From: Pirellulales bacterium | Lineage (GTDB): Bacteria; Planctomycetota; Planctomycetia; Pirellulales; JANQPP01 | Assembly: GCA_028289405.1 (NCBI GenBank) | Contig: JANQPP010000206.1 | Location: 1,092 to 65,091, forward strand | Direction: 5' to 3' | DNA length: 64,000 nucleotides | Shown: in pieces, positions 4,040 to 30,820 of the stretch | How the letters are laid out: each line of letters starts with the position of its first letter | Numbering within the stretch: the first letter of the stretch is position 1 | Position numbers and translations under genes: made by a program | Notes under the pieces: generated by a model | The model's input: only the letters and a program-made list of their open reading frames with translations | Told to the model about the DNA's origin: nothing | The model's database searches: none

Positions 4040-5080
4040 TCAATATTTGCCGCTGTCGATGGGGAGTCCGTCGTTGGACGCATTAAGCCGCTGCCAGGTG
4101 AGGTAGTCATCCAAGCTGATGTCCCAGGTGGTTCCCTTTTCCACGTGATCGCTGATGAAACGAGAACTGCCGTCCGCCATGGCGACGTATACTCCGCCAG
4201 GATGACGACTGCGGGTCGTAGCCTGCGTGCTGGAACAACCGCCGCAACACGTCATGCATTCGGCGAACATGGTCGCCTCGCCGACGGCGGAGATGATACC
4301 TTGGCAGCCGAGAATATTGTCCGAAGCGCTTTGGCAGGAATTCGGCCCGATGGCGTCATCGCTGGCGTGCCCCCACAGGCTGCTCGCGCCAGGAGCCCCC
4401 ATGGCCCACACGCCGCGGCGGTCGGCAGCCGCCAAACCGGCACGAACCTCTCCGAGGAGGATGGTATTACTCGTGCCGTCGCCAATGCCGTCGATATTCA
4501 GCGCCACGTTGGAGCCCATGACTCCTTGATATAACTCACCGACCCAGCGCTCCGAGCCGGCGCCGTGACACGGCCGAAAGCCAGTGCTGAGAAAGCCGAG
4601 GCAAGCGTTGGCCCCGTAGTTGCCACGGGCCCAATTGTCTCCCTCGTTGTCGTTGGCATATTTCACGGCGTGATTGGCCGTGTCGGAAGGACAGATCATG
4701 GCGTTGAGCACCGTACCGCGCGGTTCCCGATTGATCGGTGCGGAAATCGCCACGGTCAGGTCAAACGCATCTTGTAGCGGTTGCTGTTCGATGAAGGGGA
4801 GCAGCGCAATCACCCAATTCACGCCGAACTCGGGACTGGTCTCTGGATTCACGCCCTCCGGATAGGTGAGACTGGGGGGAAAAAATTTGTGCACACCATG
4901 ATAGGTATGCAGCGCGAGCCCAAGTTGTTTGACATTGTTCAAGCATTGCGTCCGCCGGGCCGCTTCTCGGGCTGACTGCACCGCCGGCAACAGTAGGGCC
5001 ACCAAGACTCCGATAATGGCGATCACCACCAACAGTTCGACCAAGGTGAAACCCCGTCTTCCGGTGCCACGTGCCAACAT
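4040..5080 (-). CDS. DUF1559 protein with prepilin-type N-terminal cleavage/methylation domain (Planctomycetes H-X9-DG family)
   Basis: 346 aa; N-terminus '[52 protein letters not shown]'. Confidence 0.8.
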
Positions 5081-21882: not shown

Positions 21883-23049
21883 TTGCAATTCGAGATCTCC
21901 ATGTCCCACATCGACACGGAACAACTGGAATCGATCCTATCCTCCCAAGGTACTGAAGCGGCTTTCTCCGAACTGGCGAAGCAATTGCGGGAACAGCGCC
22001 GGCTGCATGAACTGTTCGAGGTGCGGCTCATGCAGGCCCGCTTGCGGCTCGGGCTGCCCGTGATCCTCGGCAAGTCTCAGGAACTCGCGGCCGCGGATCA
22101 GGAGGCCATCGAGGAGGCGTACATGGAAGCCTGCCGTGAGACGGGCCGGGAGTGGCTGCGGGATGGAGCCGTGCGTGAAGCCTGGATGTATCTGCGGGCC
22201 TCGGGAGATGAATATTTGATGCGCGATCATCTCGCCTCGGCGGAGCCGGACGAATCGCGCGTCGACGCGCTGATCGACGTGGCGCTGCATGAGGGAGTTT
22301 CTCCTCGACAGGGACTGGCCTGGATCTTGGAGCATTACGGCACCTGCAATGCCATCACCAGCTTCGACAATTTCCTGCACGGCAAGGAGGGGCCGGACCG
22401 GGCCCGCTGCGCCGAGCTGCTCGTCACGCACGTGTATGAAGAGTTGTCCCGCAACGTGGCCGCCGACATCGCCCGGCGGGACGAGCGGGATCTGGCCGCC
22501 GCCACCTTGGTGGATATGATCGGGTCCCGGCCGGAACTGCTTGAGGGGCAAAACTACCATCTCGATACCACGCACCTGCACGGCGCCGTACGGATTGCCC
22601 GCTTCGCCGAAGAGCTCAAAGCCATCGAAGCCGCCTGGGAATTGACCGAATATGGCCGCCGCTTGGATCCGCAATACCAATTCGCCGGGGAAGAACCCTT
22701 TGAAGACCTCTACCCCAGCCACGGCCTGTTCTTCGCCGCGCAGCTCGGGCGGGATGTCGACGCGGCGCTCGATTACTTCCGCCAGCAGGCGCGGGACTCT
22801 CACGAGCAGCAAGGCCCCTTTTCCTCGATCGCCGTGTTCCTCACCCTGCTCACCCGCGTGGGCCGCCTGGAGGAAGCGGTGCAGGTCGCCCGCGATTGGG
22901 TCCCCGAAAGCTGGCGTTCGGCGCCCGGCGCGCCGTCGCTGTGGGAACTGTGCGAGCGGCTAGGCAATTTCACCCCGCTGATCGACGTCGCCCGCGAAAA
23001 AAGCGACCCCATCGCCTACCTGGCCGGCCGCGTCGCGCAGCAGGGGTAG
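21883..23049 (+). CDS. Hypothetical alpha-helical protein
   Basis: 388 aa, high GC, no recognised motifs; convergent with the reverse transcriptase gene. Confidence 0.5.
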   Translation: MQFEISMSHIDTEQLESILSSQGTEAAFSELAKQLREQRRLHELFEVRLMQARLRLGLPVILGKSQELAAADQEAIEEAYMEACRETGREWLRDGAVREAWMYLRASGDEYLMRDHLASAEPDESRVDALIDVALHEGVSPRQGLAWILEHYGTCNAITSFDNFLHGKEGPDRARCAELLVTHVYEELSRNVAADIARRDERDLAAATLVDMIGSRPELLEGQNYHLDTTHLHGAVRIARFAEELKAIEAAWELTEYGRRLDPQYQFAGEEPFEDLYPSHGLFFAAQLGRDVDAALDYFRQQARDSHEQQGPFSSIAVFLTLLTRVGRLEEAVQVARDWVPESWRSAPGAPSLWELCERLGNFTPLIDVAREKSDPIAYLAGRVAQQG

Positions 23050-23157
23050 GGAAGTAGGGCTGATACCCAGCCGTGGGCTGGCAAACAAATCCAATTGCTA
23101 CTGCGAAGTTGTCGATGGCAACGAGTTTTCGTTCAAAAAAGCTGACGCATACAGTGC

Positions 23158-24480
23158 TTATGCGCCCTTTTTTTGGTATTTTTCAAGTTCTGCGTGCAGA
23201 TTCGTCCAATGCCGTTTTAGCTGCTTGCGTATTGATTCACTTCTCATCATTTCCTGCGATCGCCGTCCATAACTGACGAAGTTTCGTCGACCGAGATGAC
23301 TAAATCGGCTATATAATTCGTGACGAAATATTTTTGTTGAACCACAGTTTCTGGCGGCTATCGCAGCCGAACGAACGCCGAATTTCATTCGTCGGTAGAA
23401 TCGCGCCAACGTTTGTGATCGGATTAACTTCCGTTCGCCATCAAAGGTAAAACCGAGGTATTGCAAAGGTTGATCAGACACAACAGTCCTAGATCCAGCC
23501 ACAGAAAAAACTGATCGCTCTCTCTTCTCTAAATTGGAATTTAGCAATAGTGCCTTCAGTTCCTTGTCAACTGCCTCAGACACTTGCGATTCGTACTCAC
23601 TTGGACAAATCCAGAGTATGTCATCGCTGTACCGTCGGTATACGCCACCCAACTGCGAAGCCAGATTTGCCATCGTGCGATCAAAGGGCAGCATATATGC
23701 ATTTGACAGCACTGCACTGATCGGAGACCCCTGAGGTATTCCAAAATGATTCGTATTCTGAGAAACAAGACCTTTCCCACGAACTCGAATTCGAAACTCA
23801 GCCGGTTCGCATATCCTACTCATTCTTTCAGTTGATGTGTTTGCTCGTAGTCCAAATTCAGAATAGACGGCGTCACGATCAACGAAGGCAAACTTGGTGA
23901 TTGATTTGTAAACCGCGAAATGGTCGGAGGGGAGTGAATTGACTCCCAGCAAACTACACCAGATCTGTTTCAAAAGACCGTGATCTAGCGTGTCAAAGAA
24001 TGCAGAAACATCGAATGCCAAAGCAGTACACGGTGCCCGTTGAACTGCGTCTCGAAAGGCATCGTTCGCAAAGTCGATATTGCATTTACCGATAGCTCGA
24101 TATGCAAGCACATTGCCGCTCAATTCCTCGTCGGAATAGATCCGTTCGAGTAAAGCAGCCAAGCAAAGCGAGTAACGTGCGTACACTTGAGAATCCAGGT
24201 GCGACGCGTAAGCGATAAGACGGTCTTTGGATTCAACCTTTCGCTCTTCTGGCCTATACCTTGGCGTGCTCTTAGTATATGTGATGAACGGAAAAAACGA
24301 GTGCCTCGCTACGTTGTCAGAGTTATCTAAAAAAGACTTGGCGAATTTGAAAGATACAGGTCTATCAAAATGGAGGTATCCCTTCGGTGAAAACCATCCA
24401 TCAATCTTGTGTTTTCGTTTGTCCATAATTTCGAAATAGCAATGCCGAGAGGGCCGGACCTGAGGCATCCATATGCCCAT
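23158..24480 (-). CDS. Standalone reverse transcriptase (Abi/UG-like or group-II-like; class undetermined), candidate defense-associated RT
   Basis: 440 aa (alternative ATG at 24426). RT motifs in order: motif 2 'RPEERKVESKDRLIAYASHLDSQVYA', motif A 'ALAFDVSAFFDTLDHGLL', motif B 'GIPQGSPISAVLSNAYMLPFD', motif C 'YRRYSDDILWI' (YxDD), motif 7 'LQYLGFTF', then a basic helical C-terminal extension of about 100 aa. No retron-type 'VTG' motif. Gene and flanks are visibly AT-richer than the surrounding DNA. Confidence 0.8.
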   Translation of the reverse strand: MGIWMPQVRPSRHCYFEIMDKRKHKIDGWFSPKGYLHFDRPVSFKFAKSFLDNSDNVARHSFFPFITYTKSTPRYRPEERKVESKDRLIAYASHLDSQVYARYSLCLAALLERIYSDEELSGNVLAYRAIGKCNIDFANDAFRDAVQRAPCTALAFDVSAFFDTLDHGLLKQIWCSLLGVNSLPSDHFAVYKSITKFAFVDRDAVYSEFGLRANTSTERMSRICEPAEFRIRVRGKGLVSQNTNHFGIPQGSPISAVLSNAYMLPFDRTMANLASQLGGVYRRYSDDILWICPSEYESQVSEAVDKELKALLLNSNLEKRERSVFSVAGSRTVVSDQPLQYLGFTFDGERKLIRSQTLARFYRRMKFGVRSAAIAARNCGSTKIFRHELYSRFSHLGRRNFVSYGRRSQEMMRSESIRKQLKRHWTNLHAELEKYQKKGA

Positions 24481-24883
24481 CTCGGCGCAAGCTTAACCTT
24501 CCGATGTAAACGTACATCACACGTCCTACATCGCCCTCAGTTGAAACAATACTCGCTATAATGGAGGTAGCTCATTGCATATCGTCGCCGGAGCAACATC
24601 ATGGCTAATTGCCATTACTGCCGTCTTCCGACTTGACATACTAAACAACCTGTCCCGATGGGCGAATCCCAACGGCAATAACCTAACTGTGCAATTATTG
24701 GGCCAAAGGATTGTTTTGCCAGAATGGCAGCTTCTCCGGGGTCGAGCTGGAGCAAATGCAAAAAATGACTGCCATTCTTGCGGGAATTGTCAGTCGTGAA
24801 GGAACCAACGCAATTGGTACGTTGCAAAGCAGCCACAGGTAACAATCCCGCTGTGGTGGAAAAACAGCATCCGACAGCGGGGC
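24481..24883 (-). ncRNA. Candidate structured non-coding RNA region upstream of the RT (strand and extent uncertain)
   Basis: About 400 nt with no convincing ORF, AT-richer than flanks. Imperfect 13-bp inverted repeat 24717-24729 'GCCAGAATGGCAG' / 24778-24790 'CTGCCATTCTTGC' enclosing a 48-nt loop. Shorter palindromes at 24505-24535. TATAAT-like hexamer at 24556-24561. Confidence 0.25.
24846..24880 (-). terminator. Hairpin immediately after stop of the 144-aa gene (terminator-like)
   Basis: 'CCCGCTGT' (24846-24853) pairs with 'ACAGCGGG' (24873-24880); 8-bp GC-rich stem with 19-nt loop. Begins 4 nt beyond the stop at 24884. Downstream minus-strand sequence 'GAUUGUUACCU' is only moderately U-rich. 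Confidence 0.3.
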
Positions 24884-25318
24884 TTATGCCGCGTCGGACA
24901 ATTCGCCTTCGGTGAGGCTCATCAGGTCGCGGGCGAGGAGCATCCAATCGACCGAATCGAGCGCGGCCCGCAGCATCTGGTGGGCGAACTTGGGGAGGGA
25001 ATCCGCGCCTTGTTCCCAGGAGAATTCCAGCACGTCCCGGGAACTGATCCACTGCCGCAGCGCGTCGGCCAGCAGATTGCGGGCCACGTCCCGAACTTTG
25101 TCCCGCTCGGCGCGGACCTGGCCCAGAGCGAGGATCGCGATCATGGCCTGGCGGGAGGCGGCCCGCGCCAAGGCTTGGGCATGCTGGCGGCGTTCCTTTG
25201 TCTCGGCGATGTATTTGGCCACCGCCTCCGTGGGAAGGGACATCAAGTCCCGCGCGGGGAAGATTTGCAGCGCGTCTTCGGGTGCTGAAGTCATGTCCCG
25301 CCTGCCGATACGGACCAA
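24884..25318 (-). CDS. Small alpha-helical hypothetical protein between giant ATPase and RT
   Basis: 144 aa (possible start at internal 'MTSAPEDAL'). Internal duplicated motif 'PARDLMSLPTEAV' near the N-terminus and 'LARDLMSLTEGEL' at the C-terminus. No known domain recognised. Confidence 0.45.
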   Translation of the reverse strand: MVRIGRRDMTSAPEDALQIFPARDLMSLPTEAVAKYIAETKERRQHAQALARAASRQAMIAILALGQVRAERDKVRDVARNLLADALRQWISSRDVLEFSWEQGADSLPKFAHQMLRAALDSVDWMLLARDLMSLTEGELSDAA

Positions 25319-25426
25319 AATACGACATTTCGGGCCTGTCCTCGCACGGCGCGCGAGGCGACCCTTTCTGGTATCGGCTGGTATCCAGCGCGAACTTCAA
25401 TTTCCGAAAACACCGGAAATCCGACG

Positions 25427-28400
25427 TCAGCCGCCGTCCACCTCGTTCCGGTCCCGCGAACGGGCCAGCGAGGTTTCGAGTTCTTCGATCAATTGCTCGT
25501 ATTTTTGCGTACAGTCGGCCAGGGTTTGACGCAACTCGACCAGTTCGCGGGATTGCGTGTCTCCGGAGGCGAGCAACGGCGAAAGCCAACTTTCCATGAC
25601 CTGGAACTGCTGTTGCATGACCTGCAAAAAAGAACGCGGGATACGGCTCACGACCGTGACCTGCAGGGGCGCTCCGCCGTCCAGCGTGGGACTTGGCGAA
25701 GAATCCTGGATTTCCGCCGTGGTTTTCGCCTCGGAGCCGTAGCCCGGTTGGGCGGGGACGGTAACCTTGACGGGACGCGGAGGCTGCGTGAACCACTTCT
25801 CCAGGTTTTCCGTGAATTGCCCGCCCCATTCCGTAAGCGCCGTTTGCAAATGCCCCAAATGTTCAACCAGCGGGGTCACGACTTGCGAGGAAGCCTGGTC
25901 CTCGCGAGGGGTCAAGAACGAGGCGCCTTGCCGCACGGCTTCGCCGATCTGATCGAGCCCAGCACGAAAATCTTCGAGTTGCACCACGACTTGCCCCAAC
26001 CGATCGTCGCCGCCGGCCCCCTTCAATTTTTGCTGCCGCTGGAAGGTGGCCTTGATGGCCTCCCACCGCTGCGCCTCTTCCGGCGTGAGGTTGCCGAGCA
26101 GTTCATTGAGCTTGAGCAGGTTCGCCTCGGCATCGGAGGTGAGCGTTTGGGCATCGTTCTCGTAGTTGGAAAGGATCAGGGTCTCCAACTCCGCGTCGTT
26201 CATGATCGACACCACCCGTTCGGCGATGCGGTTCATGTTGCGGTAAGAACCTTGCAGTTTGAAAGGTGGTTCCGTGCGGTAAGCATCGGCCTGCGCGGCG
26301 GAGCGGATGTATTCCTGATTCACGGTGAGCACGACGTCCCGCACGCGGAGCAGTTTCCGCATCACGGAGACGAGCTCCTGCATTTCGTCGGCGGAGTAAT
26401 TGCCTTCCCATTCGAACCCGTCGGTTCCTCCCTGCTCCGCGACTTTTAGCAGCGTGTGAACATCCTGGGGATGGCGATGGGCAACTCGATTGAGCACGGT
26501 ATTCGAGGTGGCGCAGTTTTCGATGTAGCTCATCTCGAACACATCCGCCGAATCGCCGATGATATCTCCCAAGTTGTAGATATCGGCGCGGTTGGAAAGC
26601 ATGTCGGGGATCTGGAATTTCTCGCCGCTCTCCGTGTAGGGGTTGCCGGCCATGACCACCGCAACCTTCCGTCCCCGCAGGTCGTAAGTGCGGGGCTGGC
26701 CGTTCCATACGCCCTCGATCTTCCGCTGGGCATCGCAGAGGGAGATGAATTTCTGCAGGAATTCGGGATGGCAATGCTGGATGTCGTCCACGTAGATCAT
26801 GACGTTGTCCCCCATTTCCAGGGAGAGATTCAGCTTGCGAATCTCTTCCCGCGCGCCGGCGTTGGGGGCTTCCGCCGGATCGAGCGACATCACGCGATGG
26901 CCGATGGCGGGGCCGTTGATCTTCATGAAGGTCAGGCCCAGGCGGTTGGCGACGTATTCCATCAAGGTGGTTTTGCCGTAGCCCGGCGGGGAGACGAGCA
27001 GCAGCAATCCCATGCGGTCGGTCCGCTTTTGGTCGCCCGCCGCGCCGCACTGTTTGGCCAGGTTGTCGCCGATGAGCGGCAAATAGACTGTGTCGATGAG
27101 GCGGTTCCGCACGAACGAAGTCAGCACGCGGGGCTTGAATTCGTCGAGCCGCATCCCCTGGCGGTGCTCGGCGACCAGGTTCTTTTTCAGGGCGTGGAAT
27201 TCTTCGTAGCGGGGGACTTCCACTTCCGCGAAGTTTCGCAGCTTGGTGAAAAAAGTGTGGAAGTTCAGCCGATAGTTGCCGCCTTCGAGGACCGGATGCG
27301 TGCCCACCATGTCTTTGAGAACTCGCAGCGGTTCTCCTTCCAGCACGCGCTTGGGCGGCGTGGCAGTGAGCAGACGCAGGGCAACCTCCTCCACGTAGCC
27401 TTCACGTTCGGGATCGGCATGTTCCCGCACGAAAGCCCGTGCCGCGTCGCAAGCCAATTGGAACGCGCTCGCGGGATCTTTTTCCAAGGCGGTGAGTGCA
27501 TTCCGCCAGGTTTCTTCTTGGACTTGGTGATGCAGATGCTCTTGGAAGTTTCGCGCCAATTCCTCCGCCGCATGGCTGACGGCAAAATCGGGCGAACTGC
27601 TGATTTCGTCGTAGAGATATCGCGCGGCTGGTTCGAGGGAATCCGGGGAAAACAAGGGCCGCCGTTCCACGAACTCGGCGAGCCGGTCCTGAAGTTCATG
27701 GACGTAATTTGCTTTCGGCGTGGCGCGAGGAAACCACTGTTCCACGCGTCCTACCCCCTGCAAGCGAGCTGTGAGCAATTCCTTTTCCTGGGGTGGAAGG
27801 AAAAACCGCCAATACAACTGGGCCAGCGACCGGGCCGGAGCCGGGTAACGCAGCAGCCCCAAGTGCTCGTCGAGGTCCCACAAGGCACTCAAGATTCGGG
27901 CTGCGTCTTGGTCGGTGACGCCCTTGACATACCCTTCGGTGTAGCGGGGGGCCATGAATTCGCGAACCCAATCCAGCCGGGCTGGTTCGCTGGTCCGCAA
28001 TTCCTGCCGGCGTTTGAGAGGAATGTCCTCTGGCGACCGTTGCCACAAGAGATACGCCAAGTATTCACCGCGGTAGACGTGTTCGTTCTCGGAGATCGTT
28101 TCCCGGTTCCACAGGTCTTGGGCTTCGGTCAGCCCGGGATCGTCCAATGGCTCGAAAAAGTTCGTGCCGGTGAGGTGCAGGAGCATGTCGCCTTCACGGA
28201 CGACGGTCGTGAGATCTAGCGGCTGCGTGTTGACATGGAAGCGGTGCCGCCCGAATTGCAGCACGTTTTCGCCCTCAACAAACAATTCCTGTTTGTCGCG
28301 CAATTGCCGCAGGGCATCTTCCTGCACGGTCTTGAGCCGGCTTTGAATCTCGTCCAGCTTGACGGTATCGCCGAGGGATTCGAGTTGCCCGCAGATGTCG

Positions 28401-30820
28401 CGGACCTTATCCACCATTAGATCGGCGGCGAAATAGGCGTTGATTTCCTGGACCGTTTCCAGCGAACCGACCCGAGTTTGAATGCCCTTCAAGATGCGGT
28501 CCGCGGCACTGGCCAGCGCGGCAGCGCGTTTGTTGCGGGCTTCGACCAGCTCAACTTTGCGGGCTTCGAAGATGGAGTAAATCTCGTCCCGCTTCTCGGA
28601 AAGCTGGACGACGAACTCATCGAACTCCGCGAAACGGCCCTCCAATTCCTCGATCTGCACCATGAGCTTGGTGAGAAATTCGTCGCACTTTTCCGGAGTG
28701 CGGCACAAATCGAGATAATTGGTGACGCCCTGGTCCAAGAGCCGGAGTTGAGAACTGAACTCCGCCGCCGCCTCCACGGACATCAATTCTTTGGCCCGTT
28801 TTTTTAGCGCTGCCCGGGCCTGATTGATGCGGGTGAAGATCTGCGAAATGGCATCGACGATGGCGGTGCGCTGCGTGGTGTCGTCGATTTTGAGGTTGCT
28901 CACCACGTCGATGAGCATCTCGAGTTCCGCCGCCGTTTGCTTGATTTCCTCTTCGAGTTCCTTGGCCTGCGCGACCTTCGCCACCTCGGCGATTCGCGCA
29001 TGCTGGCCGGTTACTTTTTGTTGGTATGGCTCCAACGCCGCCGGCTTGAGCAGGAATTCCACGCAGCGGCGGGCCAGACGTTCGGACTGCTCGGAGACCT
29101 CCTGTTCCAGCTTTTCGACCAATGGTAGGTCCACGTACCGCAATTCGCGGAGCCCGATGATCCCGCCGCGCAGCAGCCGTAGCTCGCCCAGGGAGGCCAC
29201 ATAATCTTGAATCGTTTCGAACCGCCGGCGATTGACCGTGGCGAGCGTCTCTCGCGTCTTCTCCTGAATGGAACGGGTTTGCTCGGCGGTTTGCCGTTGG
29301 GCTCGGCGGACCTTTTCGTATTCCTCGACCGCCGACGCGGCGGTTTCCCGGATCTGCTTCAAGATTTCGCCAGGCCGAAAGGCCTCTTCGGCATCGATCC
29401 AGAAGTAGGAATCGACGACTTCCGTGGCGATTTTCTCAATGTCCAGGTAGAGGCTCGCGTACGCCTCTTCCCGGCCAATCAGGGCCAAGATCTCATGGCA
29501 TTCGGCCATGCCCCGCACGATGTCGCGGTTTCCCACCTTGTAGAGATACGATTCGGCGTGCGCGGCGGGGACATGCGTATCGCTGGTGAAGGGCGTTTGC
29601 CAGACTTGCAAGGGATGATGCCGTTGGGGTTCTTCATGTGTGCGGAAGCAGAGCAGTTCCCCTTCTTGGAAAATCGTGAAACCGTGGCATATCAGCGGGG
29701 TTTCCACGGCCTGTTCGATGCAATTGTATTGCAACAGGACATATACGCCCTTCAAGCGGTGGTGGAACACAAACAGCGTGTCCTCGCCGTTGGACGCGGT
29801 AACCCGCCGCGCGAAGAGCATGTCCGCCGCGGAGTGGTCGAATGTTTTGAACTCTCCGCTTTGCAAATAGTAGCCGCCGGGAAAGATCAGCCCCTGGTCA
29901 TCCGGCAAGAGCACGCAAGAGGTGGCCAATTCGTCCAGACGGACCACGGATTGCAGTTTTTCGTTGTAAACGAAGTAGCGGTAATCGGGCTCTTGATAAG
30001 GCCGAATTTTCAGCAGAATCAGATGGCCCAGGATGGCATAAAATATCTCCGCGTCATCGAGCGTCTGGTCGGCATTGTCGACCGGTTCGTCGTGGATCCC
30101 CTCGCCGGAATCCGTGTTGTTCTCCACTTTGATGGTCAGGTCACCGCCGATGGTTTCCACGAACAGGCGGTCGGCGATGGAGACATGCGGATGCTTGCCG
30201 AAGAAATGCTCGTCCCGCGTGGTCCGCGTCCATTCAAATTCATGCTGTGGCGGATAACGGACCTCGTGATCGCTGCGGTTGTCGATGTACTGAAGGCCGG
30301 TGTCCGTGAACAGCCACTTGAACGCTTTGATGTCACTAATCTCGCGTCCGGTACGAAACACCATGTAGAGGTGCGGCCCGGAGAGAAAGAACTGCGAGAA
30401 CGTGGCATCCTTGTAATAGCGGTAAATCTCCTCGAAGTCACGCTGGAACTGGGCATCCTCAAGCAGCGTGAGCGGCTGTTCATGGAACGTGCCGTCACGG
30501 AATTCGTGTACGGCGAACACATCCTCTGGCCGCCGCTCCGTTTTCAGGCCGAATTGGACGTTGAATCCGAACAGAAAGAAACGTCCCACGGCCACGATGT
30601 CCCGGGGCACGCAATTGTGTTCCGTGGTGACCCGTTCCGTGGCAAGCAGCTTGGTCTCGATCGAGCCGAAGACCTTTTTTCGCTCCTCGTTGAGCTGCCC
30701 CAGCCGCTGGCGCAGTTCGCCCGCCTGGGTCGAAAGCCGCTGGCTAATGATTTCATAGGTGCCGCTTTCCAGCTCGATGTCCGAACCCTGCGACGTGGCG
30801 GAGGCGGTATCGGCGGCCAT
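25427..30820 (-). CDS. Giant (1797 aa) protein with a single AAA_5/MoxR-type AAA+ ATPase domain and long coiled-coil regions; function unknown
   Basis: Walker A 'LLLLVSPPGYGKTTLMEYV', Walker B 'NVMIYVDDIQ', sensor-1/Arg region 'VAVVMAGNPYTESGEKFQIPDMLSNRADI' (MoxR/dynein-like) at about aa 1180-1400. Extensive heptad-like helical segments at about aa 480-900. Long antisense ORFs on the + strand are considered GC artefacts. Confidence 0.8.
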   Translation of the reverse strand: MAADTASATSQGSDIELESGTYEIISQRLSTQAGELRQRLGQLNEERKKVFGSIETKLLATERVTTEHNCVPRDIVAVGRFFLFGFNVQFGLKTERRPEDVFAVHEFRDGTFHEQPLTLLEDAQFQRDFEEIYRYYKDATFSQFFLSGPHLYMVFRTGREISDIKAFKWLFTDTGLQYIDNRSDHEVRYPPQHEFEWTRTTRDEHFFGKHPHVSIADRLFVETIGGDLTIKVENNTDSGEGIHDEPVDNADQTLDDAEIFYAILGHLILLKIRPYQEPDYRYFVYNEKLQSVVRLDELATSCVLLPDDQGLIFPGGYYLQSGEFKTFDHSAADMLFARRVTASNGEDTLFVFHHRLKGVYVLLQYNCIEQAVETPLICHGFTIFQEGELLCFRTHEEPQRHHPLQVWQTPFTSDTHVPAAHAESYLYKVGNRDIVRGMAECHEILALIGREEAYASLYLDIEKIATEVVDSYFWIDAEEAFRPGEILKQIRETAASAVEEYEKVRRAQRQTAEQTRSIQEKTRETLATVNRRRFETIQDYVASLGELRLLRGGIIGLRELRYVDLPLVEKLEQEVSEQSERLARRCVEFLLKPAALEPYQQKVTGQHARIAEVAKVAQAKELEEEIKQTAAELEMLIDVVSNLKIDDTTQRTAIVDAISQIFTRINQARAALKKRAKELMSVEAAAEFSSQLRLLDQGVTNYLDLCRTPEKCDEFLTKLMVQIEELEGRFAEFDEFVVQLSEKRDEIYSIFEARKVELVEARNKRAAALASAADRILKGIQTRVGSLETVQEINAYFAADLMVDKVRDICGQLESLGDTVKLDEIQSRLKTVQEDALRQLRDKQELFVEGENVLQFGRHRFHVNTQPLDLTTVVREGDMLLHLTGTNFFEPLDDPGLTEAQDLWNRETISENEHVYRGEYLAYLLWQRSPEDIPLKRRQELRTSEPARLDWVREFMAPRYTEGYVKGVTDQDAARILSALWDLDEHLGLLRYPAPARSLAQLYWRFFLPPQEKELLTARLQGVGRVEQWFPRATPKANYVHELQDRLAEFVERRPLFSPDSLEPAARYLYDEISSSPDFAVSHAAEELARNFQEHLHHQVQEETWRNALTALEKDPASAFQLACDAARAFVREHADPEREGYVEEVALRLLTATPPKRVLEGEPLRVLKDMVGTHPVLEGGNYRLNFHTFFTKLRNFAEVEVPRYEEFHALKKNLVAEHRQGMRLDEFKPRVLTSFVRNRLIDTVYLPLIGDNLAKQCGAAGDQKRTDRMGLLLLVSPPGYGKTTLMEYVANRLGLTFMKINGPAIGHRVMSLDPAEAPNAGAREEIRKLNLSLEMGDNVMIYVDDIQHCHPEFLQKFISLCDAQRKIEGVWNGQPRTYDLRGRKVAVVMAGNPYTESGEKFQIPDMLSNRADIYNLGDIIGDSADVFEMSYIENCATSNTVLNRVAHRHPQDVHTLLKVAEQGGTDGFEWEGNYSADEMQELVSVMRKLLRVRDVVLTVNQEYIRSAAQADAYRTEPPFKLQGSYRNMNRIAERVVSIMNDAELETLILSNYENDAQTLTSDAEANLLKLNELLGNLTPEEAQRWEAIKATFQRQQKLKGAGGDDRLGQVVVQLEDFRAGLDQIGEAVRQGASFLTPREDQASSQVVTPLVEHLGHLQTALTEWGGQFTENLEKWFTQPPRPVKVTVPAQPGYGSEAKTTAEIQDSSPSPTLDGGAPLQVTVVSRIPRSFLQVMQQQFQVMESWLSPLLASGDTQSRELVELRQTLADCTQKYEQLIEELETSLARSRDRNEVDGG

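What the first reader, a model, noticed from the sequence alone, without database searches (positions are those of the whole stretch)
24481..24883. Structured ~400-nt non-coding region immediately upstream of the RT (candidate ncRNA partner/template)
Between the RT start (24480) and the previous gene's stop (24884) lie about 400 nt with no credible ORF. The only long ORF here, on the minus strand, is an Arg/Gly/Pro-rich frame artefact; the plus-strand 74-aa ORF 24575..24799 is unconvincing on protein quality. The region contains a long imperfect inverted repeat, 24717-24729 / 24778-24790 (13 bp, 1 mismatch, 48-nt loop), plus shorter palindromes near 24505-24535 just before the RT start. The layout ncRNA then RT on one strand is the hallmark of retrons and of DRT2/DRT9/DRT3-type systems, in which the RT reverse-transcribes its own upstream ncRNA. 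A TATAAT-like hexamer (24556-24561) and a GGAGG (24562-24566) sit on the opposite strand, so transcript direction is unresolved.
Basis: partly seen in the sequence, partly recalled or inferred. Interest (0 to 1): 0.65.

Follow-up and report, generated by a model that had tools for sequence, protein, structure and literature searches.

The report
DRT2 template RNA hiding neo gene
The spacer holds the non-coding RNA of a DRT2 anti-phage reverse transcriptase: its 99-base template, copied head-to-tail into DNA, would assemble a promoter and an endless toxic gene, a mechanism already known, though this copy uses a different jump signal from the published one.

Summary
The reverse transcriptase (RT) is a clear Drt2 (NCBIfam equivalog 505.7 bits, cutoff 390; 1.5e-105 to the solved Klebsiella DRT2 structure). 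The spacer carries its ncRNA on the minus strand, about 24679..24437. A covariance model built only from 15 other loci hits the 64-kb window once (24562..24436, E 2.4e-16). The 5' handle hairpin, the 3' stem and a pseudoknot all covary.

TATAAT, GGAGG, an in-frame TTG and TTGACA sit in a 99-nt unit flanked by a 6-nt direct repeat exactly 99 nt apart. Head-to-tail copying gives TTGACA-17 nt-TATAAT and a stop-free 33-codon repeat: the "neo" design of DRT2 (Tang 2024, Wilkinson 2024).

- The RNA runs 44 nt into the ORF read as the RT's 5' end; the RT probably starts at 24426.
- The inverted repeat is at 24718-30/24769-81 and lies outside the RNA.

New here: the published ACA jump motif is replaced by UUGUUU. 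About 20 relatives use GU(U/A), always with units divisible by three.

This is a known kind of system in a variant form. Nothing has been tested experimentally.

The parts
23158..24426 (-). Drt2 reverse transcriptase, 422 aa counted from the probable start MDKRKHKIDGW. The ORF itself is open up to 24480.
   Evidence: NCBIfam NF041746 Drt2 equivalog scores 505.7 bits against a cutoff of 390. PADLOC Drt2 scores 1.5e-151. PDB 9c0i (Klebsiella DRT2) scores 1.5e-105, with query residue 10 aligned to chain residue 7 when this start is used. The YSDD catalytic motif is present. The homologous start codons are ATG in L001 and L002.
24437..24679 (-). Predicted DRT2 ncRNA, about 243 nt. The 5' end is inferred to within about 10 nt. 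The 3' end is placed by homology to the GCUA end of the Klebsiella ncRNA.
   Evidence: Supported by the covariance-model hit, the handle hairpin, the fold z-score of -4.05, and the conserved UUGCUA tail across 44 loci. The paper reports G277, C278 and A280 at the 3' end of the Klebsiella ncRNA.
24655..24675 (-). 5' handle hairpin: CCGUUGGG, loop AUUCG, CCCAUCGG.
   Evidence: In 15 loci, 7 of the 8 predicted pairs show compensatory changes. The window has one U-U mismatch.
24643..24648 (-). [quoted passage not shown] It plays the role of ACA-1.
   Evidence: A 6-nt direct repeat with 24544-24549, exactly 99 nt apart. GU(U/A) sits 7-8 nt after the handle in all 15 relatives aligned.
24550..24648 (-). 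Template region. One 99-nt unit equals 33 codons of neo when read on the plus strand. Any register within the 6-nt repeat gives the same product.
   Evidence: Concatenation gives one stop-free frame with the repeat (L/M)HIVAGATSWLIAITAVFRLDILNNTRYNGGSS.
24544..24549 (-). UUGUUU-2, the acceptor site for the template jump. It plays the role of ACA-2.
   Evidence: G16 and T17 after ATTATA are invariant in the 18-locus alignment.
24557..24562 (+). TATAAT, the -10 element of the neo promoter. It works only once a unit is joined upstream of it.
   Evidence: Across the junction it reads TTGACA-17 nt-TATAAT. The same out-of-order layout appears in 150 of 159 Drt2 loci, at 120-215 nt upstream of RT residue 29; the window's sits at 161 nt.
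24563..24567 (+). GGAGG ribosome-binding site of neo.
   Evidence: CCUCCAUUAUAGC is conserved in the window, L001 and L002. A purine-rich leader is present in all relatives examined.
24575..24577 (+). TTG start codon of neo, 7 nt after GGAGG and in the only stop-free frame.
   Evidence: The same position holds TTG in L001 and L168, and ATG in L002, L163, L165, L164 and L167 (-10 +12 nt); L083 has its ATG 3 nt further downstream (-10 +15 nt).
24633..24638 (+). TTGACA, the -35 element of the neo promoter. In the genome it lies downstream of the -10.
   Evidence: A perfect out-of-order pair arises in only 7 of 3000 dinucleotide-preserving shuffles.
24535..24540 (-). Pseudoknot strand 1, CUGAGG.
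   Evidence: It pairs with CCUCAG at 24465..24460. Relatives have UUGCGG:CCGCAA, CGCGG:CCGCG, UGGCGGC:GCUGCCA and GCAGC:GCUGC. A permutation test of own-partner against other-locus duplex energy gives p = 0.004 for 18 loci and 0.0014 for 42 loci.
24502..24533 (-). Scaffold hairpin ('tower'-like): CGAUGU-A-GGACGU, loop GUGAUGU, ACGUUU-ACAUCG.
   Evidence: Seen in the minimum-energy fold. A hairpin of variable length, followed by GGAAG, is predicted here in all 18 relatives. It contains G-U pairs, which form only on this strand.
24444..24486 (-). 3' stem-loop: GCCGAGA(U)GGGC ... GCCCUCUCGGC. Its loop carries pseudoknot strand 2, CCUCAG, at 24465..24460.
   Evidence: Over 44 loci, 98.6% of cells are paired and all 10 pairs show compensatory changes. 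None of 500 shuffles reach this, and slid controls pair at most 62%. It spans the ATG at 24480.
24691..24705 (-). Hypothetical promoter of the ncRNA/RT transcript: a sigma-54-like element, TGGCCCAATAATTGC. Weak evidence.
   Evidence: TGGC-N8-TGC occurs at the same distance from the handle in L001 and L002, and as CGGT-N8-TGC in L163. The loose motif occurs 26 times in the window, so only its conservation counts. A sigma-70-like match, 24722..24694, is no better than chance.

Best explanation
The region is the ncRNA of a type 2 defence-associated reverse transcriptase (DRT2), transcribed on the minus strand together with the RT.

Shown here by computation:
- The RNA has a 5' handle hairpin (24675..24655).
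- It has a 99-nt template (24648..24550) bracketed by two copies of UUGUUU.
- It has a 3' scaffold made of a hairpin, a long stem-loop and a pseudoknot, ending in UUGCUA near 24437.
- Read on the plus strand, the template carries TATAAT, GGAGG and an in-frame TTG near its start and TTGACA near its end.
- The unit is 33 codons long with one stop-free frame.

Inferred from the published Klebsiella DRT2 work:
1. The RT binds the handle and the scaffold.
2. It primes from the RNA's own 3' end and copies the template.
3. When the cDNA 3' end (...AAACAA) has been made against UUGUUU-1, it re-pairs with UUGUUU-2 and copying starts again. This yields head-to-tail 99-nt cDNA repeats.
4. After phage infection the repeats become double-stranded.
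5. Each junction then forms TTGACA-17 nt-TATAAT.
6. Transcripts antisense to the ncRNA are translated from GGAGG/TTG into an endless hydrophobic 33-aa repeat protein (Neo) that arrests growth. This is abortive infection.
For: RT identity:
- Drt2 equivalog 505.7 bits against a cutoff of 390.
- PADLOC Drt2 1.5e-151.
- 1.5e-105 to the solved Klebsiella DRT2.

ncRNA:
- Model R1, built from 15 loci that exclude the window and its two closest relatives, gives a single full-length hit in the 64 kb on both strands: 24562..24436 (-), 65.9 bits, E 2.4e-16.
- The 3' stem has 10 of 10 pairs covarying, 98.6% of cells paired, and 0 of 500 shuffles as good.
- The handle has 7 of 8 pairs covarying.
- The pseudoknot test gives p = 0.004 and 0.0014. 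The window's lineage carries a compensatory double change, UGCGG:CCGCA to UGAGG:CCUCA.
- The fold z-score is -4.05.

Neo design:
- The 6-nt repeat is 99 nt apart, both hexamers are perfect, the reconstituted spacer is 17 nt, and there is one open frame.
- Among 3000 shuffles, 7 give a perfect hexamer pair. Three give a pair with at most one mismatch plus divisibility by three, an open frame and a repeat of at least 4 nt.
- With ranking by promoter quality alone, 121 of 150 Drt2 loci have units divisible by three and 117 have an open frame.
- One fixed rule was applied to 15 relatives: the unit starts 9 nt before TATAAT and ends in (A/T)AC. It gives AAC or TAC at both ends, lengths of 78-141 nt all divisible by three, an open frame, a 17-nt spacer and a start codon 12-24 nt after the -10.

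Published mechanism.
Against: - No RNA, cDNA or phenotype data exist for this locus.
- The published ACA-1/ACA-2 motif is absent and is replaced by UUGUUU.
- Tang et al. note that Neo annotation was difficult in divergent DRT2 clades and raise the possibility of other mechanisms there.
- The start codon is TTG.
- GGAGG abuts the -10, so a transcript starting at one junction would carry its first ribosome-binding site only in the next repeat.
- The hexamers match the E. coli sigma-70 consensus, while the host looks like a planctomycete.
- I did not establish a basal stem (SL2) around the template by covariation.
- The 5' end and the promoter of the ncRNA are unresolved.
- Rfam has no family for this RNA.
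Confidence: 0.82

Rival explanations
1. The RNA is a genuine DRT2-type scaffold, but in this divergent lineage the RT makes a different product and no Neo protein is made. The product might be single-copy or differently joined cDNA, or repeats that act as DNA or RNA.
For: Tang et al. state that Neo annotation was difficult in divergent clades and suggest alternative mechanisms. The ACA motif is absent. The start codon is TTG, and the ribosome-binding site overlaps the expected transcription start.
Against: [quoted passage not shown] Their joint occurrence is rare in shuffles.
Confidence: 0.1
2. The locus is an inactive relic: a horizontally acquired DRT2 cassette that is no longer expressed or functional in this host.
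For: It is a low-GC island in a housekeeping neighbourhood. No convincing ncRNA promoter was found.
Against: The RT ORF is intact and aligns end to end with the solved enzyme, with YSDD present. All RNA helices pair, both promoter hexamers are perfect and the frame is open. An identical RT (P0001) next to the same DUF3686 ATPase gene occurs in a second sequencing sample (L169, Logan SRR20820731; its upstream DNA was not compared).
Confidence: 0.05
3. The spacer is only a 5' leader of the RT mRNA or a retron-type msr/msd, or the plus-strand 74-aa ORF is an ordinary gene.
For: An ORF of 74 codons with GGAGG 7 nt upstream exists. The region is structured.
Against: Retron RT models score far below their cutoffs (46.8 against 235). 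The genomic ORF is not conserved beyond the template: it runs 26 to 111 codons in relatives and stops one codon past the template in L002. It has no Pfam hit. In the genome its -35 lies downstream of its -10. Covariation of a stem that spans the supposed RT start codon argues for RNA-level rather than protein-level constraint.
Confidence: 0.03

Closest known systems
Klebsiella pneumoniae DRT2 (ncRNA, RT and neo; Tang et al. 2024, bioRxiv 10.1101/2024.05.08.593200; Wilkinson et al. 2024, PMC12039810; PDB 9c0i)
   Same: - A single RT gene of about 425 aa, preceded on the same strand by an ncRNA of about 250-280 nt.
- A 5' handle hairpin.
- A template bracketed by a repeated short motif.
- A 3' scaffold with hairpins and a pseudoknot, and a GCUA 3' end.
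- TATAAT near the start and TTGACA near the end of the cDNA unit, giving a 17-bp spacer only across a junction.
[quoted passage not shown]
- A unit divisible by three with one stop-free frame.
- A hydrophobic repeat peptide whose conserved residues (LDI, YNG) come from the promoter hexamers.
   Different: - RT identity is only about 44% (to related Klebsiella loci L026 and P0066; the KpnDRT2 structure itself matches at E 1.5e-105).
- The jump motif is UUGUUU (GU(U/A) in relatives) instead of ACA.
- The unit is 99 nt (33 aa) instead of 120 nt.
- GGAGG abuts the -10, rather than an RBS and start codon found 13 nt downstream of the -10.
- The start codon is TTG.
- The pseudoknot sequence is CUGAGG:CCUCAG instead of the family's GCGG:CCGC.
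- The host is probably a planctomycete.
- Nothing has been tested experimentally.
Retrons (msr/msd plus RT)
   Same: The ncRNA and RT lie on one strand, and the RT copies part of its own ncRNA. The function is in defence.
   Different: The RT is not of retron type: scores are far below cutoff. There are no flanking a1/a2 repeats, no accessory effector gene, and the expected product is a tandem-repeat cDNA rather than a branched msDNA.
DRT9, DRT3 and DRT10 (other class 2 UG reverse transcriptases with ncRNAs)
   Same: An ncRNA-guided defence RT making repetitive DNA.
   Different: These systems make homopolymer, poly(GT/AC) or short telomere-like repeats, some protein-primed and some with extra proteins. 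The window's RT scores 1e-11 to 1e-17 against those models, compared with 1e-151 against Drt2.

Membership tests
DRT2 (UG2) defence system | The RT belongs to the Drt2 family by a curated model. | tested here: met
   NF041746 scores 505.7 bits against a cutoff of 390. PADLOC Drt2 scores 1.5e-151. The solved Drt2 chains score 1.5e-105 over residues 10-413.
DRT2 (UG2) defence system | An intact RT active site (YxDD). | tested here: met
   YSDD is present. Y284, D286 and D287 are invariant in 23 homologs.
DRT2 (UG2) defence system | A conserved structured ncRNA directly upstream on the RT strand, with a 5' handle and a 3' scaffold. | tested here: met
   A model built without the window hits 24562..24436 (-) at E 2.4e-16. 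The 3' stem has 10 of 10 covarying pairs. The handle has 7 of 8.
DRT2 (UG2) defence system | A pseudoknot in the 3' scaffold. | tested here: met
   CUGAGG (24540..24535) pairs with CCUCAG (24465..24460). The alignment-free test of own-partner against other-locus pairing gives p = 0.004 and 0.0014, with compensatory variants among loci. This was not tested with R-scape.
DRT2 (UG2) defence system | A template flanked by two conserved ACA trinucleotides (ACA-1 and ACA-2). | tested here: not met
   No ACA pair lies at the boundaries. Instead UUGUUU occurs twice, exactly 99 nt apart. Sixty-six other loci do have the ACA pair, and about 20 have GU(U/A). The role is met; the sequence is not.
DRT2 (UG2) defence system | A repeat unit divisible by three, with one stop-free frame across junctions. 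| tested here: met
   99 nt with a single open frame.
DRT2 (UG2) defence system | -10 and -35 hexamers out of order in the genome, giving a 17-bp spacer across the junction. | tested here: met
   TTGACA, then TACTAAACAATACTCGC (17 nt), then TATAAT. This is rare in shuffles.
DRT2 (UG2) defence system | [quoted passage not shown] | tested here: met
   GGAGG, 7 nt, then TTG at 24575. The position is shared with relatives, which have ATG or TTG there.
DRT2 (UG2) defence system | A basal stem (SL2) enclosing the template, with the acceptor motif in its 3' half. | not tested
   Only a single-sequence fold was examined. No covariation analysis of this stem was made.
DRT2 (UG2) defence system | Phage-induced concatemeric cDNA, junction-spanning antisense RNA, and a toxic Neo protein. 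| not testable with these tools
   This needs experiments.
Retron | An RT of the retron clade. | tested here: not met
   The best retron model, NF038233, scores 46.8 bits against a cutoff of 235.
Retron | An msr/msd bounded by a1/a2 inverted repeats. | tested here: not met
   No inverted repeat brackets the conserved RNA. The only strong one, 24718-30/24769-81, lies upstream of it.
DRT3 / DRT9 | An RT of that family. | tested here: not met
   Drt3a scores 57.5 bits against a cutoff of 200. PADLOC Drt9 scores 2.5e-11.
Any Rfam 15 family | A match to a curated covariance model. | tested here: not met
   Only chance-level hits with E of 1 or more in 22800..25600.

The most novel reading that the evidence does not exclude
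The window belongs to a set of DRT2 systems (about 20 of the roughly 160 loci examined; hosts named in the loci fetched include Planctomycetota, Geobacter, Geomonas, Armatimonadota and Alphaproteobacteria) in which rolling-circle reverse transcription is programmed by a GU(U/A) repeat instead of the published ACA-1/ACA-2. The rest of the neo design is kept, with units as short as 78 nt.

This would explain why ACA-based pipelines struggled to annotate Neo in 'divergent clades'. It would show that the jump signal is any short repeat at two fixed positions, 7-8 nt after the handle and 9 nt after the -10 complement.

A further, weaker possibility: in the window's closest relatives the ncRNA/RT transcript is driven by a sigma-54-type promoter with a conserved upstream inverted repeat. 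That would make the system inducible rather than constitutive.
Probability: 0.6. Interest if true: 0.5.

Novelty: new variant of a known kind. Interest (0 to 1): 0.4.

Why it matters
DRT2 is one of the most unusual information flows known in bacteria: a gene that exists only after an RNA has been reverse-transcribed into tandem repeats. This locus adds no new principle, but it is useful in three ways.
1. It shows that the whole design can be read from sequence alone in a distant, probably planctomycete, host.
2. It indicates that the template-jump signal is not tied to ACA. A GU(U/A) or UUGUUU repeat at the same two positions gives units that are always divisible by three. That offers a simple rule for annotating Neo in clades where published pipelines had difficulty, and a natural test of the re-annealing model of template jumping.
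3. It corrects the gene model. The annotated RT start lies inside the ncRNA, an error that is probably common in DRT2 annotations.

Tried and rejected
- **Rfam scan of 22800..25600:** only chance hits.
- **MAFFT and covariance-model alignments:** they place pseudoknot strand 1 in two different registers. I therefore used an alignment-free test of own-partner against other-locus duplex energy rather than column counts.
- **Upstream part of the spacer (24701..24900) as a degenerate second copy of the template:** this idea came from three short direct repeats about 159 nt apart. Local alignment scores fall within the shuffle range, so I rejected it.
- **Target-site duplication around the low-GC island:** only a 9-nt repeat (23027 / 24888), which is at chance level.
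- **Sigma-70 promoter for the ncRNA:** one 9-of-12 match, no better than shuffles.
- **Intrinsic terminator in the spacer:** none by the scan.
- **RT neighbour-joining tree to test whether GU-type loci form one clade:** my automatic motif typing left 67 loci unclassified, so the result is inconclusive.
- **First version of the Neo translation:** it used a wrong rotation across the junction and was corrected.
rejected because it lies upstream of the handle, where relatives carry promoter-like sequence. The one arm position that differs between the window and L001 is not compensated.

Full report
**What is at the coordinates**

The minus-strand ORF 23158..24480 (440 aa) is a reverse transcriptase (RT). 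The next gene upstream on that strand ends at 24884. RT and spacer together form a low-GC island of about 46%, set in flanks of about 60%, spanning roughly 23050..24880. No ORF in the spacer has a Pfam hit.

It sits at 24718-24730 / 24769-24781, with 12 of 13 positions complementary and 38 nt between the arms. It is better than any of 200 shuffles.

**Identity of the RT**

- The NCBIfam Drt2 equivalog scores 505.7 bits against a cutoff of 390.
- PADLOC Drt2 scores 1.5e-151.
- Retron, Drt3a, Drt9 and group II models are far below their cutoffs.
- The solved Klebsiella DRT2 enzyme (9c0i and related entries) matches at 1.5e-105 along its whole length.
- Closest relatives in the public data are 68% (P0002, locus L001) and 64% (P0003, locus L002) identical. 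The rest are 53% or less, and Klebsiella-type Drt2 is about 44%.

**What the literature says to look for**

In DRT2 the ncRNA lies upstream of the RT on the same strand. A central template is copied again and again because the cDNA end, made on a short motif at the template's 5' end (ACA-1), re-pairs with the same motif just past the template's 3' end (ACA-2).

The repeat unit is divisible by three and has one stop-free frame. TATAAT near the start and TTGACA near the end of the cDNA unit become a 17-bp-spaced promoter only across a junction. [quoted passage not shown] The resulting gene, neo, is antisense to the ncRNA. The RNA has a 5' handle hairpin and a pseudoknotted 3' scaffold. Its own 3' end (G277, C278, A280) primes synthesis.

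**The neo design in the window**

On the plus strand, AAACAA occurs at 24544-49 and again at 24643-48, exactly 99 nt apart. Concatenating the 99-nt unit between them gives TTGACA-TACTAAACAATACTCGC-TATAAT, a 17-nt spacer. GGAGG follows directly, and a TTG 7 nt later lies in the only stop-free frame. The repeat reads (L/M)HIVAGATSWLIAITAVFRLDILNNTRYNGGSS, 33 aa and hydrophobic.

In 3000 dinucleotide-preserving shuffles of the region:
- 7 gave a perfect out-of-order hexamer pair.
- 3 gave a pair with at most one mismatch that also had divisibility by three, an open frame and a flanking repeat of at least 4 nt.

The genomic ORF beyond the template is not conserved. It runs 26 to 111 codons in relatives, and L002 stops one codon after the template.

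**The family context**

I collected 168 Drt2 loci from genomes, metagenomes and the contigs of the closest proteins. Of these, 158 plus the window had enough upstream sequence to analyse. Candidates were ranked by promoter quality alone, within the positional range used by the family.
- 150 of 159 loci have the out-of-order pair.
- 121 of these have units divisible by three, where chance would give about 50.
- 117 have an open frame.
- The window's -10 lies 161 nt upstream of RT residue 29, in the middle of the family range.

**A different jump motif**

Most loci have ACA at both boundaries: 66 by a strict rule. The window does not. Nor do L002 (UGUUU, 102 nt), L059 (UGUUA, 102), L164 and L167 (8-nt repeats containing GUUCA, 78), L067 (GUUC, 81), L072, L143 and L147 (CGUUG, 117), L148 (129), L005 (132), L007 (141), L069 (123), or the GUA/GU group L083, L163, L165 and L168.

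The motif sits at two fixed places. One is 7-8 nt after the handle. The other is 9 nt after the complement of the -10, where G16 and T17 are invariant.

One fixed rule was applied to 15 of these loci: the unit starts 9 nt before TATAAT and ends in (A/T)AC. It gives in every case:
- the same trinucleotide at both ends,
- a length divisible by three,
- an open frame,
- a 17-nt spacer after a TTG-type -35,
- a purine-rich leader with ATG, TTG or GTG.

The conserved peptide residues (LDI, YNG) are simply the promoter hexamers read in frame, as Wilkinson et al. noted for the Klebsiella group.

**The RNA itself**

The RT-proximal 230 nt or so of the spacer aligns among the window, L001 and L002. The distal 170 nt mostly does not. 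A covariance model of the 3' scaffold was built from 15 loci that exclude these three. It gives one hit in the whole window on either strand: 24562..24436 (-), full length, 65.9 bits, E 2.4e-16. It also finds 44 of the 93 sources searched (the window plus 92 loci), including ACA-type ones, so the scaffold is shared across the family.

- **3' stem (24486..24475 with 24454..24444):** 98.6% of cells paired over 44 loci, compensatory changes at all 10 pairs, 0 of 500 shuffles as good, and at most 62% paired in slid controls.
- **5' handle (24675..24655):** 7 of 8 pairs covarying in 15 loci.
- **Pseudoknot:** the stem's loop (CCUCAG, 24465..24460) can pair with CUGAGG (24540..24535), just after UUGUUU-2. 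Relatives pair UUGCGG:CCGCAA, CGCGG:CCGCG, UGGCGGC:GCUGCCA and GCAGC:GCUGC. Each locus's own partner pairs better than partners from other loci (p = 0.004 for 18 loci, 0.0014 for 42).
- **Middle hairpin:** a hairpin of variable length followed by GGAAG lies between these elements in all 18 relatives.
- **3' tail:** the conserved UUGCUA (24442..24437) matches the GCUA priming end reported for Klebsiella.
- **Overall fold:** the 251-nt RNA folds with z = -4.05.
- **Strand:** G-U pairs and the strand-specific model hit settle the direction. The RNA is on the minus strand.

**Consequence for the gene model**

The 3' stem spans the ATG at 24480, so that codon is inside the ncRNA. The start shared with L001 (MKKSKHKLNSW) and L002 (MAERKQKIDGW) is the ATG at 24426 (MDKRKHKIDGW). 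With that start, the N-terminus lines up with residue 7 of the 425-aa Klebsiella enzyme. The public annotation (P0001, 436 aa) also starts too early.

**What remains unexplained**

The inverted repeat lies 40-100 nt upstream of the handle. Its core, TGGCAG...CTGCCA, with similar spacing, recurs in L001 and L163 and partly in L002. Between it and the handle, all three closest loci have TGGC-N8-TGC, and L163 has CGGT-N8-TGC. This is the sigma-54 -24/-12 spacing, at a constant distance from the handle. The loose motif is common in the window (26 copies), so only its conservation counts. I treat both as leads about regulation, not findings. I did not test the basal stem around the template.

**Verdict**

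This is a DRT2 ncRNA with its cryptic neo gene: a known kind of system in a variant form with a non-ACA jump motif. It sits in a genome that looks planctomycete (DUF1559 with an N-terminal methylation motif) and in a housekeeping neighbourhood. The anatomy is shown by computation. Each step of the mechanism is inferred from the Klebsiella work.

Noticed in passing
window 24718-24730 / 24769-24781: A 13-nt inverted repeat (GCCAGAATGGCAG / CTGCCATTCTTGC, 12 of 13 complementary, 38 nt apart) lies upstream of the ncRNA. It is better than 200 shuffles. Its core, TGGCAG..CTGCCA, recurs with similar spacing in L001 and L163 and partly in L002. It may be an operator or activator site; its function is unknown.
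   Followed up: partly
window 24691-24705 (-): A sigma-54-like -24/-12 element (TGGCCCAATAATTGC) would place the transcription start at the 5' handle. The same TGGC-N8-TGC occurs at the same distance in L001 and L002, and CGGT-N8-TGC in L163. The loose motif occurs 26 times in the window, so the case rests on conservation only.
   Followed up: partly
window 24427-24480 (-): The first 18 codons of the RT ORF (and the first 14 of the public 436-aa annotation) overlap the covarying 3' stem-loop of the ncRNA. The real start is probably the ATG at 24426. Several relatives are annotated with similar over-long N-termini (P0002 at 460 aa, P0005 at 491 aa).
   Followed up: yes
window 25427-30820 (-) and 24884-25294 (-): Directly upstream lie a 1797-aa protein with DUF3686 ('ATPase involved in DNA repair'), DUF7902 and an AAA domain, and a 136-aa protein with no family hit. 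The ATPase gene and a 136-aa gene in the same position upstream of the RT are also called in a second sample (L169). I could not tell whether they relate to defence.
   Followed up: no
window 4040-5080 (-): A DUF1559 protein with an N-terminal methylation motif. This family is greatly expanded in Planctomycetota and suggests the host phylum. The other genes scanned are housekeeping: isocitrate dehydrogenase, an aminotransferase, a ketoacyl synthase and a Ser/Thr kinase.
   Followed up: partly
window 23027-23035 and 24888-24896: A 9-nt direct repeat, GCCGCGTCG, flanks the low-GC RT/ncRNA island, inside the 3' ends of the two convergent flanking genes. About 0.25 such matches are expected by chance, so it is probably not a target-site duplication.
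   Followed up: yes
window about 23135-23166 (-): Directly at the RT stop codon lies a hairpin (GCGCAUA..UAUGCGU) followed by CAGC and a run of six U. It looks like an intrinsic terminator for the RT.
   Followed up: no
window 24845-24881 (-): A hairpin, CCCGCUGU...ACAGCGGG, lies directly after the stop codon of the upstream 136-aa gene, without a clear U-run. It may terminate or stabilise that gene's transcript. The terminator scan does not call it.
   Followed up: no
L003, L004 (Calothrix, Chroococcidiopsis) and L058, L063, L071, L073, L075, L078, L079: These Drt2 loci showed no out-of-order -10/-35 pair in the expected range. They may use other promoter types or a different product, and would be the place to look for truly divergent DRT2 mechanisms.
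   Followed up: no
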